Shown here in pieces: positions 43,254 to 46,340 of a stretch of 64,000 bases of DNA (within the stretch, counting starts at the first letter, position 1; every line of letters begins with the position of its first letter). The translations under genes and the position numbers were made by a program. A model generated the notes under the pieces. That model had not been told where the DNA came from. It worked only from the letters and a program-made list of their open reading frames with translations, and did not search any database. The stretch covers positions 1,414,476 to 1,478,475 of the forward strand of contig CAXXKM010000003.1 in the NCBI GenBank assembly GCA_963664435.2, read 5' to 3'. Source of the stretch: Longimicrobiales bacterium. Its GTDB lineage: Bacteria > Gemmatimonadota > Gemmatimonadetes > Longimicrobiales > Gaopeijiaceae.

Positions 43254-46200
43254 ATGACACGACGGAGATCACGCGTCTGGGCAGCGAGCTTGTCCGCGGT
43301 CCTTCTGGTCGTCTGCTCGGACGACCCGGTGACGACGGCTCAGCCTCCTCCCCCCGAGGAAACCGATATTGCCGGCCGGGACGCGCTCATCGCCCTCTAC
43401 AACGCAACGGAGGGTACGAACTGGCACAACAGTAGAAACTGGCTCACCTCGGAGAGCATCCGGTTCTGGGAGGGGGTGTCGACCAACGCGGCCGGCTTCG
43501 TCACCGAACTGTCGCTGTCGGATAACAACCTGTCGGGGACACTCCCGCCTGAACTCGGGGATCTGACACAGCTGAGACGGCTGGTTCTGGACAACAACGA
43601 ACTGACGGGTCCCATCCCGTCGGAGTTGGGCAAGCTGGACTGGCTGACCATGCTCGAGTTGAGCGTGAATGGCCTGACCGGGACGATCCCGGTTGAACTC
43701 GCGGCGCTTCCGCACCTCGACTCCCTGCTGCTTTGGAGAAACCAGCTTTCGGGCCCGATTCCGGTCGAACTGGGCAGCATGCGTTCTCTGCGAAAGCTGC
43801 TGCTGGCGAGGAATCAGCTGTCGGGTCCGGTACCGCCGGAACTGGGCAACCTGAAGACTCTCGTGGACATGAGCCTAAGCCGGAACGAATTGACCGGCAC
43901 GGTCCCGCCGGAACTGGCGAATCTGAGTGCGATCACGTCCCTGTCGGTGTCGCGCAACAACCTGACGGGGACGATTCCGCCCGAGTTGGGAGAGCTGTCC
44001 AACCTGGAGGGGCTGTATCTCTACGACAACGAACTCACCGGTGAAATACCCGCCTCGCTGGGGAATCTGACGGCACTGCAGACGCTCTGGATTCACGAGA
44101 ACGGACTCTCGGGCCCGGTGCCTGAGTATGTCGGAAACCTCACCGAGCTTCGGAGCCTGCGAGTCGCCGACAACGGGCTGAGCGGCGCCTTGCCCCGCGA
44201 TCTGGGCAACCTTCACGCCCTGATCTGGGTCAAGCTCGAGGGGAACCCTGACCTGACCGGCTTGTTGCCGCGGAGCATGCTCGACCTGGAACTCCTGCAG
44301 GAGCTGTCGTACGGCGAGACCGGCCTGTGCGCCCAAATCGACGACGAGTTTCAGAAGTGGCTGGGTACCGTTCCGGAGGTCGACGGGACGGACTGCGACA
44401 TCCCGCGGGTCGAACGACTCGCTCTGACAAGCCTGCACGATGTGACCGGCGGCACCTCCTGGGTGAACCGGGCGGCGTGGGGGACCGAGGCTCCCCTGGG
44501 AGACTGGCATGGCGTTGCCACCGAGGGCGGCCGGGTCGTGGAAGTGGCGTTGCCCGGCAACGGCCTGTCCGGTCCGCTTCCTGGTGAGATTGTCAACCTC
44601 AAGGAGCTCACGGCGGTCGACCTGACGGGAAACGACCTGTCCGGTGCATTTCCGGGCGACATCGCATTGTTGCGTGAGCTTGCCGAGTTGCGCGTGGGCC
44701 GCAATGCGGGGCTCGAGGGCGCGCTGCCTTTCGATCTTCGGCGCCTGAGACGACTTCGAGTGCTGCTCCACGACGACACCGGACTGTGCGCGTCGCCTTC
44801 GCCGGATTTTCGGGCATGGTACGCCGCGATCGAGGAGACAGCAGGCGCCATCTGCGACAACCCGGACCAGGTCACGGTATCCCTGCCGATGGTCTACCTC
44901 ACCCAGTCGGTGCAGACCCCGTCCGGCAGCGTGCGCCTGATCGCCAACCGGGAGGCGCTGTTGAGGGTATTCGTCACAGCGGAGGAACCCAGAGGATTCT
45001 TCGAGCCCGAGGTCGTTGCGGTCTTCGCCCGGCCGGGGGCCGAAGTTCACCGCGTGATCATGACCCGGGATGACAACCAGATTCCTGCGGTGGCGGACGA
45101 GGGCGACCTTGAACTGTCGTACAACGCCGTGATTCCCGCCGAGATCATCGTCCCGGGCGTCGAGATGGTCGTGGAGGTCGACCCCGAGGGAACCCTGCCC
45201 GTAACTGGCGAAAGCGAAACCCGTTTCCCACACGAGGGCTCCCACTCGCTGAACGTCGTGGAAGTGCCCCCGATGCAGCTCACGCTGGTACCGGTCATGG
45301 AGGCTGAGCAGCCAGACACATCGGTTCTTGGGTGGGTCCGCGGCATCTCCCCCGAGAGTCCCAAGGTAGGATTGCTGAAGCACGCGTTCCCGTTTGCGGA
45401 GTTCAGCGTCCGTACACACGAACCCTACTTCACTTCGCTCGACCTGACCACCGGGTCCGGACAAAGGGGACTGGTGAACGAACTCGAAGCGCTGCGGTCA
45501 TCGGAAGGCGGCAGGTACTACTACTATGGGGTCGCCGCAAGCGTGAACGGCTTCGTCCGGGGGTTTGCGGGGTCGGAGTGGGTGAGCATGGGCCAGGCGA
45601 GCCCCGCCACCCTGGCGCACGAGGTTGGTCACAACCTCTCACTCCAGCACGCCCCCTGTGGAGACATCGGTAACGTTGACCCAGCCTTCCCCTACCGGGA
45701 CGGAAGTATCGGCGTGTGGGGATACGACTTCCGTCATGGCACGGTAGTGCCTCCCGACCATTCCACAGACATCATGACCTACTGCTATACGCTGCCGTGG
45801 CTCAGCGACTACTTTTTCGAGAAAGTGATCGACTATCGTGCGCAGTTGGCCGCAAGCGCGGCGAGCGCCCTCCTGGCCGCATCGGACCCGCCGTCCGACA
45901 TGCTCGTGCTGTGGGGCGGCGCCGTGGATGGCGAGTTGTGGATCGATCCGGTGTTCTCGATGCACGCGGCTGCAAGACTCCCCGAGGCCTGGGGTCCGTA
46001 CCGCATTCGCGGCACCGTGTCCGACGGCCAGCCACTCTTCTCACTGGACTTCACACCCACCGAGGACGAATACGGCGGGAAGCACTTCTTCTTCACTGAC
46101 TGGGCCGGAGGGCCAGGCATACGTGGACCAGGCCGACGAGCGCCGCATCACCGTGGTCACCGAACCCGGGACGGGACGCCTGTGCGCGATCCTGCGGGAC

Positions 46201-46340
46201 TGGGAGGGGGCGCTGCCGGACGGGCTCAGGGACGGGGCCGGCCTGGAGGTGAGCATGACGCGTGGGCTCAGGGAGGCGGTGCGGCTGCGGAGGTGACGGA
46301 AGGGCGGGATAGCCGTCTGGACCCGGATCCTACGCGATGA
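43254..46340 (+). CDS. LRR / metalloprotease-like lipoprotein paralog 2, with a 3' tail frameshifted relative to paralog 1 (possible pseudogene or assembly artefact)
   Basis: 1028-aa ORF. Same architecture as paralog 1: LLVVCSDD, twelve LRRs at about 43497-44360, HEVGHNLSLQH at 45618-45650. After 46096 the frame yields Gly/Arg-rich nonsense. The conserved tail is in another frame (track ORF 45838..46296). Confidence 0.75.
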   Translation: MTRRRSRVWAASLSAVLLVVCSDDPVTTAQPPPPEETDIAGRDALIALYNATEGTNWHNSRNWLTSESIRFWEGVSTNAAGFVTELSLSDNNLSGTLPPELGDLTQLRRLVLDNNELTGPIPSELGKLDWLTMLELSVNGLTGTIPVELAALPHLDSLLLWRNQLSGPIPVELGSMRSLRKLLLARNQLSGPVPPELGNLKTLVDMSLSRNELTGTVPPELANLSAITSLSVSRNNLTGTIPPELGELSNLEGLYLYDNELTGEIPASLGNLTALQTLWIHENGLSGPVPEYVGNLTELRSLRVADNGLSGALPRDLGNLHALIWVKLEGNPDLTGLLPRSMLDLELLQELSYGETGLCAQIDDEFQKWLGTVPEVDGTDCDIPRVERLALTSLHDVTGGTSWVNRAAWGTEAPLGDWHGVATEGGRVVEVALPGNGLSGPLPGEIVNLKELTAVDLTGNDLSGAFPGDIALLRELAELRVGRNAGLEGALPFDLRRLRRLRVLLHDDTGLCASPSPDFRAWYAAIEETAGAICDNPDQVTVSLPMVYLTQSVQTPSGSVRLIANREALLRVFVTAEEPRGFFEPEVVAVFARPGAEVHRVIMTRDDNQIPAVADEGDLELSYNAVIPAEIIVPGVEMVVEVDPEGTLPVTGESETRFPHEGSHSLNVVEVPPMQLTLVPVMEAEQPDTSVLGWVRGISPESPKVGLLKHAFPFAEFSVRTHEPYFTSLDLTTGSGQRGLVNELEALRSSEGGRYYYYGVAASVNGFVRGFAGSEWVSMGQASPATLAHEVGHNLSLQHAPCGDIGNVDPAFPYRDGSIGVWGYDFRHGTVVPPDHSTDIMTYCYTLPWLSDYFFEKVIDYRAQLAASAASALLAASDPPSDMLVLWGGAVDGELWIDPVFSMHAAARLPEAWGPYRIRGTVSDGQPLFSLDFTPTEDEYGGKHFFFTDWAGGPGIRGPGRRAPHHRGHRTRDGTPVRDPAGLGGGAAGRAQGRGRPGGEHDAWAQGGGAAAEVTEGRDSRLDPDPTR
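46097..46296 (+). other. Out-of-frame conserved C-terminal coding segment of paralog 2
   Basis: The 46097-46299 tract matches 42848-43050 with 3 mismatches in 203 nt (hand alignment). It translates as LTGPEGQAYVDQADERRITVVTEPGTGRL... in a frame different from the upstream gene body. Confidence 0.85.

What the first reader, a model, noticed from the sequence alone, without database searches (positions are those of the whole stretch)
46017..46340. 47-bp gap plus abrupt identity switch at the 3' end of paralog 2, giving a frameshifted tail
Seen in sequence by hand alignment:
- Up to 46096 (...cacttcttcttcac) paralog 2 matches paralog 1 (to 42800) at roughly 80%. I counted about 15 mismatches in the last 80 nt.
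- Paralog 2 then lacks the 47 nt at 42801-42847 of paralog 1 (ggtgcccatt...atcaccc, encoding VPIDAGWEDALERITL).
- From 46097 to 46299 it matches 42848-43050 with only 3 transitions in 203 nt.
- Similarity decays again about 10-20 nt after the stop codon.
- Because 47 is not a multiple of 3, the body frame runs into Gly/Arg-rich sequence to 46340. The conserved tail (LTGPEGQAYVDQADERRITVV...AVRLRR) is readable only in another frame (track ORF 45838..46296).

Inference: there are two candidate explanations. One is a recent gene-conversion or illegitimate-recombination event that copied the 3' end of paralog 1 into paralog 2 and broke the frame, creating a nascent pseudogene or truncated variant. 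The other is a repeat-induced assembly chimera.
Basis: seen in the sequence. Interest (0 to 1): 0.65.

Follow-up and report, generated by a model that had tools for sequence, protein, structure and literature searches.

The report
Real frameshift deletion beside gene-converted tail
One of two tandem protease genes in a sponge-symbiont bacterium has a real, recent 47-base deletion that breaks its reading frame, right at the edge of a stretch the two copies keep nearly identical by copying from each other; this is ordinary gene decay plus gene conversion, not an assembly error.

Summary
The two genes are tandem paralogs encoding lipoproteins with plant-type leucine-rich repeats, a StcE/M66-like metalloprotease domain and a conserved C-terminal beta domain. 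The genome is a sponge-associated Gemmatimonadota (Longimicrobiales).

- **Gene conversion.** The bodies are 78-79% identical (dS 0.43-0.54). The last 203 nt differ at 3 sites (dS 0.019). Tail trees group the two copies by genome (bootstrap 100%); body trees group them by orthology. This is interlocus gene conversion, probably P1 into P2, and it recurs in related genomes.
- **Not an assembly chimera.** Contigs built independently from raw reads of six public runs (three studies) cross the 46096|46097 joint.
- **The deletion is lineage-specific.** Nine other runs and a 147-kb public metagenome contig (98.6% identical) carry paralog 2 intact (1029 aa). It has the 47 nt in frame, the same P1-like tail and the same downstream flank. 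All 28 related copies examined keep the segment.
- **Order of events.** The converted tail most likely predates the deletion, which spans the 5' edge of the identity tract. Whether recombination between the copies caused the deletion is unresolved.
- **Consequence.** Paralog 2 loses family-invariant residues and five beta-strands, so it is most likely a nascent pseudogene.

Ordinary mechanisms, well documented here.

The parts
39868..43047 (+). Paralog 1 (P1), intact. It has a lipoprotein signal (MARRRSRVWAVGFCAILLTVCS), plant-type LRRs, an M66/StcE-like metalloprotease domain (HEIGHNLSLRH) and a C-terminal beta domain. The mechanical ORF starts at 39676.
   Evidence: The start homologous to P2 and to database relatives is at 39868.
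43254..46096 (+). Paralog 2 (P2) body: 947 codons with no stop. Signal peptide, LRRs and HEVGHNLSLQH motif are intact. It is 78-79% identical to P1 at nucleotide level.
42801..42847 (+). The 47 nt of P1 (VPIDAGWEDALERITL) that have no counterpart in P2. Intact sister P2 has GGTGCCGATCGAGGCCGGCTGGGAGGAGGCGCTCGAACGCATCACCC here (VPIEAGWEEALERITL).
46096..46097 (+). Deletion joint in P2, with 1 nt of junctional microhomology (C). An imperfect TCAC repeat flanks it, offset by 2 nt.
   Evidence: Read-derived contigs cross it in X1-X5 and X18.
42848..43050 (+). P1 tail: the part of the gene-conversion tract retained in the window's P2. In strains with intact P2 the identity tract starts at about 42828.
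46097..46299 (+). P2 tail: 3 transitions against P1 (46183 T, 46228 A, 46263 T). It is now out of frame with the body. Read in the conserved (P1-tail) frame, which no longer continues the body frame, its stop is at 46294-46296.
46097..46340 (+). The 81-codon Gly/Arg-rich out-of-frame extension actually encoded after the joint in the body frame.

Best explanation
**What the genes are.** P1 and P2 are old tandem duplicates (body dS about 0.5) in a sponge-associated Longimicrobiales/Gemmatimonadota chromosome. Each encodes an LRR plus StcE/M66-like metalloprotease lipoprotein.

**Gene conversion of the tail.** The last ~220 nt, encoding the end of a conserved C-terminal beta domain, are repeatedly homogenised by interlocus gene conversion. 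The tract is anchored between the conserved CACTTCTTCTTCACGGTGCC block and the conserved gene end. In the common ancestor of this strain and its sister strains, P2 received a P1-type tail from about 42828 to 3 nt past the stop.

**The deletion.** Later, in the lineage found in host 'organism A', a 47-nt deletion with 1 nt of microhomology removed 27 nt of diverged and 20 nt of identical sequence across the 5' edge of that tract. This shifted the frame. P2 now lacks 16 residues and reads 81 junk codons instead of the last 67 residues.

**Consequence.** The lost part holds family-invariant residues and five beta-strands, so P2 is most likely a recent, nearly fixed pseudogene.

**Shown versus inferred.**
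- Shown: the conversion, the real joint, the intact sister allele, and the conservation of the lost part.
- Inferred: the order of events, the P1-to-P2 direction, and the loss of function.
For: **Conversion**
- Tail 3/203 mismatches against about 21% in the body.
- dS 0.019 against 0.43-0.54.
- Tail NJ tree puts W_1+W_2 together at 100% bootstrap, nested among P1-type tails. The body tree puts W_1 with P1 orthologs and W_2 with L002_2/L009_2.
- The W tails are 98.5% alike but at most 94% identical to any ortholog tail.
- Raised tail identity also occurs in L002, L003 (131 nt identical), L006, L007, L009 and L012.

**Real joint**
- The P2-body contig runs 45500->46125 unbranched in X1-X4, X5 and X18.
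- The P1 contig runs through the 47 nt in X1 and X2.

**Derived, lineage-specific deletion**
- In X6, X9, X12, X7, X10, X14 and X15, X17, X20, the P2 body continues with GGTGCCGATCGAGG....
- L078 has an intact 1029-aa P2. Its only indel against W_2 is the 47 nt.
- All 28 other copies keep the segment.

**Tail predates the deletion**
- Intact sister P2 has the same P1-like tail. It also shares the P2-specific A at 46228 with W_2.
- In X6 the shared P1/P2 contig starts at 42829.

**Functional loss**
- G421 and G424 are invariant, and L414, L419, P422, G445, R448 and R452 are at least 90% conserved across 98 homologs.
- The AF2 model (pLDDT 92.7) shows strands 416-421, 424-429, 436-440, 447-452 and 469-473 in the lost part.
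Against: - Logan contigs drop rare variants, so a minor intact allele in host-A samples cannot be excluded.
- Phasing of the three tail SNPs onto P1 or P2 rests on the original assembly and on one X1 contig.
- P1 of the L078 strain was not retrieved. An inserted two-component system lies upstream of its P2. P1=P2 tail identity in intact strains therefore rests on k-mer contigs.
- A 47-nt deletion landing on the tract edge by chance has roughly a 1.5% prior. That argues for a mechanistic link rather than two fully independent events.
- Site 46164 (W_2 = W_1 = A; L078-P2, the X10 and X14 tail contigs and the six P2-clade orthologs examined = G) fits a later P1-derived patch abutting the joint.
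- There are no expression or protein data, so 'pseudogene' is an inference.
Confidence: 0.8

Rival explanations
1. Single-event model, close to the first reader's. In the host-A lineage, a fresh P1-templated repair or template switch copied P1 tail sequence into P2. Its 5' end was resolved illegitimately, creating the 47-nt deletion in the same event. The alternative form is that a recombination intermediate stalled at the edge of P1/P2 identity and was mis-processed.
For: - The deletion straddles the 5' edge of the identity tract: 27 nt diverged plus 20 nt identical.
- The chance of such an overlap is about 47/3087.
- There is only 1 nt of microhomology at the joint.
- At 46164, W_2 has the P1 state (A), while L078-P2, the X10/X14 tail contigs and the six P2-clade orthologs examined have G.
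- Conversion is demonstrably recurrent in this clade.
Against: - Sister strains already have the converted tail in frame, so no new copying is needed to explain the identity switch.
- W_2 keeps the P2-specific A at 46228 shared with L078-P2. Any fresh tract would therefore have to end before 46228, and before 46183 if that T is not a later mutation.
- Support comes from a single informative site.
Confidence: 0.4
2. Repeat-induced assembly chimera: the joint and the near-identical tail are artefacts of collapsing or mis-joining the two paralogs.
For: The tail is a near-exact repeat longer than typical k-mers. Logan graphs branch at it and pop the SNP bubbles differently in different runs.
Against: - 31-mer contigs made directly from reads cross 46096|46097 by 29 nt in six runs from three studies. 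Their depth equals that of the P2 body, and there is no alternative branch.
- The three P2-specific tail variants and both downstream flanks are each seen in reads.
- A de Bruijn chimera cannot create a joint whose k-mers are absent from reads.
Confidence: 0.01
3. No conversion: the tail is simply under very strong purifying selection, so the two copies stayed alike.
For: The tail is somewhat better conserved than the body between orthologs (tail 81-94% against body 78-89%). It also holds invariant residues.
Against: - Synonymous divergence drops 25-fold.
- The W tails are closer to each other (98.5%) than to any ortholog (at most 94%).
- W_2's tail is only 80.5-88% identical to the tails of its own body orthologs.
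- Tail and body trees are incongruent.
Confidence: 0.02
4. The frameshifted P2 is still functional. Either it works as a truncated LRR-protease with a new Gly/Arg-rich end, or the tail is recovered by +1/-2 ribosomal frameshifting near CAC TTC TTC TTC ACT.
For: - 947 codons upstream are intact, with signal peptide, LRRs and zinc motif.
- Both frames are open across 45838-46340.
- The allele appears fixed in host-A samples.
Against: - No canonical slippery or stimulatory element was seen at the joint, by inspection only; no motif search was run.
- The intact relatives need no frameshift.
- Even with a shift, 16 conserved residues would be missing.
- The lost domain is present in all 98 homologs.
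- The very low divergence from the intact allele (9 substitutions in 2843 nt) means an intact upstream ORF is expected for a young pseudogene.
Confidence: 0.05

Closest known systems
3'-segment concerted evolution of Helicobacter pylori outer-membrane protein paralogs (babA/babB, homA/homB)
   Same: Only the 3' segment of the paralogous surface-protein genes clusters by strain rather than by gene. This is attributed to intragenomic gene conversion, with the 5' and middle parts diverging (PMC2795765, citing Pride & Blaser 2002 and Santoyo & Romero 2005). Here the tail clusters by genome and the body by orthology.
   Different: - The paralogs here are tandem, not dispersed.
- The proteins are LRR-metalloprotease lipoproteins of a sponge symbiont.
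- There is no evidence of antigenic or phase variation.
- One copy has in addition suffered a frameshifting deletion at the tract edge.
Recent frameshift pseudogenes in host-associated bacteria
   Same: - A non-multiple-of-3 deletion in an otherwise intact ORF.
- An intact allele in strains more than 98% identical.
- Loss of conserved C-terminal residues.
- The allele is tied to one host's symbiont lineage.
   Different: The deletion lies exactly on a gene-conversion tract boundary. Loss of function has not been tested.
StcE (peptidase family M66, E. coli O157:H7; PDB 3UJZ)
   Same: - Pfam PF10462 hit above its cut-off.
- HExxHxxxxxH motif.
- Best Foldseek match to the high-confidence model, E 1.8e-12 over 583 alignment columns.
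   Different: - 13% identity and a modest TM-score (0.34-0.42).
- The Pfam match covers only profile positions ~178-245.
- An N-terminal plant-type LRR array and a lipoprotein signal are present.
- Substrate and activity are unknown.

Membership tests
Interlocus gene conversion / concerted evolution | Sharp block of near-identity inside otherwise diverged paralogs | tested here: met
   3/203 against ~21% mismatches. Longest identical run is 86 nt. Binomial P 5e-16.
Interlocus gene conversion / concerted evolution | Synonymous divergence collapses in the block | tested here: met
   dS 0.019 in the tail against 0.43-0.54 in three body blocks.
Interlocus gene conversion / concerted evolution | Block clusters by genome while flanks cluster by orthology | tested here: met
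   NJ trees: tail W_1+W_2 at 100% bootstrap and 0% in the body. L003 and L012 pairs also join in the tail tree.
Interlocus gene conversion / concerted evolution | Paralogs in one genome are closer in the block than orthologs between genomes | tested here: met
   98.5% within the genome against at most 94% to any of 28 related copies.
Interlocus gene conversion / concerted evolution | Recombination-dependent transfer observed directly | not testable with these tools
Assembly chimera | Joint not supported by raw reads, or supported in a single assembly only | tested here: not met
   The joint is crossed by read-derived contigs in X1-X5 and X18, from three studies.
Recent frameshift pseudogene | Frame-breaking indel relative to intact close relatives | tested here: met
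   L078 P2 is 1029 aa and intact. Its only indel against W_2 is the 47 nt. Nine runs carry the intact allele.
Recent frameshift pseudogene | Lost part is conserved or needed in the family | tested here: met
   Invariant G421 and G424 and six near-invariant residues in 98 homologs. Five predicted strands are lost.
Recent frameshift pseudogene | No functional product | not testable with these tools
   No RNA runs were identified. No proteomics are available.
Programmed ribosomal frameshift | Frameshift conserved in relatives, with a slippery site and a stimulator | tested here: not met
   All relatives are in frame. No canonical motif was seen by inspection at CAC TTC TTC TTC ACT; no motif search was run.
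Peptidase M66 (StcE-like) | Match to the family profile above its curated threshold | tested here: met
   PF10462 scores 24.1 and 30.5 bits against a cut-off of 20.6, but covers only profile positions ~178-245 of 306.
Peptidase M66 (StcE-like) | Zinc-binding HExxH...H motif and StcE-like fold | tested here: met
   HEIGHNLSLRH / HEVGHNLSLQH. Foldseek top hit is 3UJZ, E 1.8e-12, TM 0.34-0.42.
Peptidase M66 (StcE-like) | Metalloprotease (mucinase) activity | not testable with these tools
   Needs a biochemical assay.

The most novel reading that the evidence does not exclude
The deletion is a by-product of paralog-paralog recombination. A P1/P2 recombination intermediate ran to the edge of sequence identity and was mis-resolved there. 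Under this reading the locus is a natural, population-sampled snapshot of conversion-associated mutagenesis, with both the 'before' allele (intact, converted) and the 'after' allele (deleted) still circulating in different sponge hosts. Loss of this LRR-protease copy may also mark host-specific adaptation of the symbiont.
Probability: 0.3. Interest if true: 0.45.

Novelty: new member of a known kind. Interest (0 to 1): 0.3.

Why it matters
The flagged joint is biology, not an assembly error, so annotation should mark paralog 2 as frameshifted rather than 'repair' it. The locus is a clean example of 3'-end concerted evolution in a tandem family of eukaryote-like (LRR) StcE-like proteases. That family is widespread and multi-copy in sponge-associated Gemmatimonadota, and its members are plausible host-interaction factors.

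The broken allele was seen in all five runs labelled 'organism A', and in one further run labelled only 'sponge metagenome'. The intact allele was seen in nine other runs, including those labelled organisms C and D. The deletion therefore offers a simple marker for symbiont lineage tracking. It also gives a natural knock-out for asking what the C-terminal domain or the second copy contributes. The mechanisms themselves are well known.

Tried and rejected
- **First AF2 run** on a 12-sequence alignment gave pLDDT 42 and was discarded. A 98-sequence alignment fixed this.
- **PDB sequence search** found only plant LRR receptors through the N-terminal overhang of homologs. It found nothing for the protease or the tail.
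- **RNA runs:** no run that could be identified as RNA was found. All six listed runs are of unknown kind and are the same runs found in the DNA search, so expression could not be tested.
- **Hairpin-mediated slippage:** the intact 94-nt segment folds no better than shuffles (z -1.3). This explanation was rejected.
- **Simple slippage between the flanking TCAC repeats** would delete 45 nt in frame, not 47, so it does not fit on its own.
- **P2/P3 fusion by deletion of a third tandem copy** was rejected. Intact sister P2 has the same body, tail and downstream flank.
- **Promoter and terminator scans** of both intergenic regions found nothing.
- **Pfam** found nothing for the small ORFs downstream of P2.
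- **The window's own proteins** were not among the protein-search hits, and its genome was not among the GTDB representative loci returned. The best hits were 82% and 88% identical.
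Full report
**Observation**

ORF listing and translation show two tandem genes on the + strand. P1 is ORF 39676-43047, with its homologous start at 39868. 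P2 is 43254-46340.

A global nucleotide alignment gives about 78-79% identity through the bodies. It places one 47-nt gap in P2 opposite P1 42801-42847, exactly between 46096 and 46097 (BLAST). The placement is ambiguous by a single C.

After the gap, 42848-43050 and 46097-46299 differ at only three positions, all transitions (42934 C/T, 42979 G/A, 43014 C/T). The preceding 80 nt hold 16 mismatches and the preceding 300 nt hold 51. At 20% divergence, the probability of 3 or fewer mismatches in 203 nt is 5e-16.

Identity stops 3 nt after the stop codon, with weak similarity for another ~10 nt. The P2 body frame continues into 81 Gly/Arg-rich codons to 46340. The conserved tail is readable only in the frame of ORF 45838..46296.

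**What the genes are**

Both proteins start with a lipoprotein-type signal (…LLxVCSDD) and carry plant-type leucine-rich repeats. They hit Pfam Peptidase_M66 above its threshold around the motif HE(I/V)GHNLSL(R/Q)H.

A high-confidence AlphaFold model of the C-terminal 484 residues of P1 was built on a 98-sequence alignment (pLDDT 92.7, pTM 0.91). Its best structural match is StcE, the M66 prototype (3UJZ, E 1.8e-12). Residues ~336-473 form the C-terminal beta domain(s).

Relatives are abundant in sponge-associated Gemmatimonadota/Longimicrobiales MAGs. They often occur as tandem arrays of two or three copies and at several loci per genome.

The window is core chromosome. It holds rpoC/rpoB, a Thr-Gly-Tyr-Thr tRNA cluster, ribonucleotide reductase, and AnmK and a SIS-domain gene just upstream of P1.

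**The identity switch is gene conversion**

- Nei-Gojobori dS is 0.43-0.54 in three body blocks but 0.019 in the tail. Protein-level constraint therefore cannot explain it.
- In a 30-copy alignment, the W_1 and W_2 tails are 98.5% identical, while W_1's tail is only 81-94% identical to any other copy.
- W_2's body is closest to L009_2 and L002_2 (84.0% and 82.8%). Its tail is only 88% and 80.5% identical to theirs.
- Neighbour-joining trees place W_1 with P1 orthologs and W_2 in a P2 clade for the body. They join W_1+W_2 at 100% bootstrap for the tail, nested among P1-type tails, which suggests a P1-to-P2 direction.
- The same raised tail identity is seen in the tandem pairs of L002, L003 (131 nt identical), L006, L007, L009 and L012. 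It is not seen in the more distant L023, L032 and L053. Conversion of this segment is therefore recurrent in the clade.
- The tracts sit between the universally conserved CACTTCTTCTTCACGGTGCC block and the conserved gene end.

This is the pattern described for the 3' segments of H. pylori babA/babB and homA/homB (PMC2795765).

**Not an assembly artefact**

Fifteen of the 24 public runs listed for this stretch were laid on it. Logan contigs are built from 31-mers of raw reads.

- In X1-X4 the P2-body contig runs 45500->46125. It crosses the joint by 29 nt without a branch, at the depth of the P2 body. The same holds for X5 and X18. That is six runs from three studies.
- The tail is a shared node with bubbles at the three SNP sites. 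It branches into the P1 and P2 downstream flanks at 46299/46303.
- One X1 contig links the joint, all three P2 variants and the P2 flank.
- P1 contigs run straight through the 47 nt.

**The deletion is derived and lineage-specific**

In nine other runs the P2-body contig matches to 46096 and then continues with GGTGCCGATCGAGGCCGGCTGGGAGGAGGC…. The next contig starts …GCGCTCGAACGCATCACC before 46096 (X6, X9, X12; X7, X10, X14; X15, X17, X20).

An exact search with the reconstructed intact sequence found a 147-kb JGI metagenome contig (L078). It is 98.6% identical to window 43096-51710. Its P2 is an uninterrupted 1029-aa ORF ending …KHFFFTVPIEAGWEEALERITLTGPEG…AVRLRR. The only indel against the window's P2 is the 47 nt. 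All 28 other family copies examined keep the segment.

**Order of events**

- The intact sister P2 already has the P1-like tail. It differs from W_1's tail at three sites, and it shares the P2-specific A at 46228 with W_2.
- In X6 the contig shared by P1 and P2 starts at 42829. Within the 47-nt segment P2 differs from P1 at 42807, 42810, 42813 and 42827.
- The conversion tract (~42828 to 43050) therefore most likely predates the split of the two lineages. The deletion removed 27 nt of diverged plus 20 nt of identical sequence across its 5' edge.
- W_2-specific changes since then are 46183 C>T and 46263 C>T.

A randomly placed 47-nt deletion would span that edge with a probability of only about 1.5%. 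At 46164, W_2 has the P1 state, while L078-P2, the X10/X14 tail contigs and the six P2-clade orthologs examined have G.

A mechanistic link is therefore plausible: a further P1/P2 recombination attempt mis-resolved at the limit of identity. I give it about 0.4, but it rests on one site and a post-hoc coincidence. The joint has 1 nt of microhomology. The segment has no significant hairpin. Simple slippage between the flanking TCAC repeats would remove 45 nt, not 47.

**Consequence**

The deletion removes residues 403-418 of the modelled region (VPIxAxWExxLERITL). It puts the last 67 residues out of frame.

This part contains the family-invariant G421 and G424 (TGPEG) and six residues conserved in at least 90% of 98 homologs, down to ~37% identity. 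It also contains five predicted strands.

The remaining 947 codons are intact. That is expected, because the body differs from the intact allele at only 9 of 2843 nt. P2 is thus most likely a very young pseudogene. A truncated functional variant or frameshift decoding is not excluded, but nothing supports either.

**Verdict**

The chimera hypothesis is rejected and the conversion hypothesis is supported. The frameshift, however, is a separate lesion at the tract edge rather than an inherent result of the copying. Both mechanisms are well known. The value lies in correct annotation, in a tidy example of 3'-end concerted evolution in a symbiont effector-like family, and in a host-linked natural knock-out.

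Noticed in passing
window 43088-43108; L078 1-1720: The P1-P2 spacer holds a perfect palindrome, CCCTGACGT-T-ACGTCAGGG. In sister strains extra DNA sits exactly here. L078 has a histidine kinase and a LuxR-type response regulator upstream of 43096 instead of P1. X6 shows both junctions, with CGTTACGTCA (43096-43105) on each side, like a 10-bp target duplication.
   Followed up: partly
L078 1582-1734; also L001 7496-7648, L041 7500-7652, L004, L013, L056, L060, L061, L064 (two copies, opposite orientation): A ~150-nt element recurs (77-93% identity) just downstream of family genes in many related genomes and in both orientations. It may be a MITE-like or otherwise mobile repeat.
   Followed up: no
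window 46300-46950: About 650 nt lie between the P2 stop and the conserved downstream gene and have no counterpart in L003, L007 or L009. In those genomes that gene follows P2 within ~70 nt. The ORFs here (46369-46770 on the minus strand, and others) have no Pfam hit. X9 and X12 lack 46305-46369 (65 nt).
   Followed up: partly
window 43096-46962 against L078: Divergence from the sister contig is very uneven: 2 substitutions in 43096-45600 but 28 in 45628-46962. This suggests an inter-strain recombination breakpoint near 45.6 kb.
   Followed up: no
window 40254-40334 against 43624-43633; 39953-39967: P2 is shorter than P1 by 72 nt (one 24-residue LRR unit) and by 15 nt in the proline-rich linker. 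Both differences are in frame.
   Followed up: no
window 39676-39867: The P1 ORF extends 64 codons upstream of the conserved lipoprotein start (MARRRSRVW… at 39868). The extension is Arg/Gly-rich and is probably not translated.
   Followed up: no
L078 ~4253 (window 45628): The intact sister P2 has HEVDH instead of HEVGH in the zinc-binding motif, and R instead of Q four residues after the second motif histidine.
   Followed up: no
L005, L007, L008, L009, L014, L016, L019-L021, L064, L070: Loci of this Gemmatimonadota-type family sit in MAGs titled Gammaproteobacteria, Acidobacteria or Deltaproteobacteria. This probably reflects mis-binning or mislabelled sponge MAGs.
   Followed up: no
L006 and L012: The tandem array has three copies in these genomes, against two in the window.
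   Followed up: no
window 1-14000: GC is lower (0.64-0.66) over the rpoC/rpoB, ribosomal-protein and tRNA (Thr-Gly-Tyr-Thr, 13368-13966) region than in the rest of the window (0.67-0.73).
   Followed up: no
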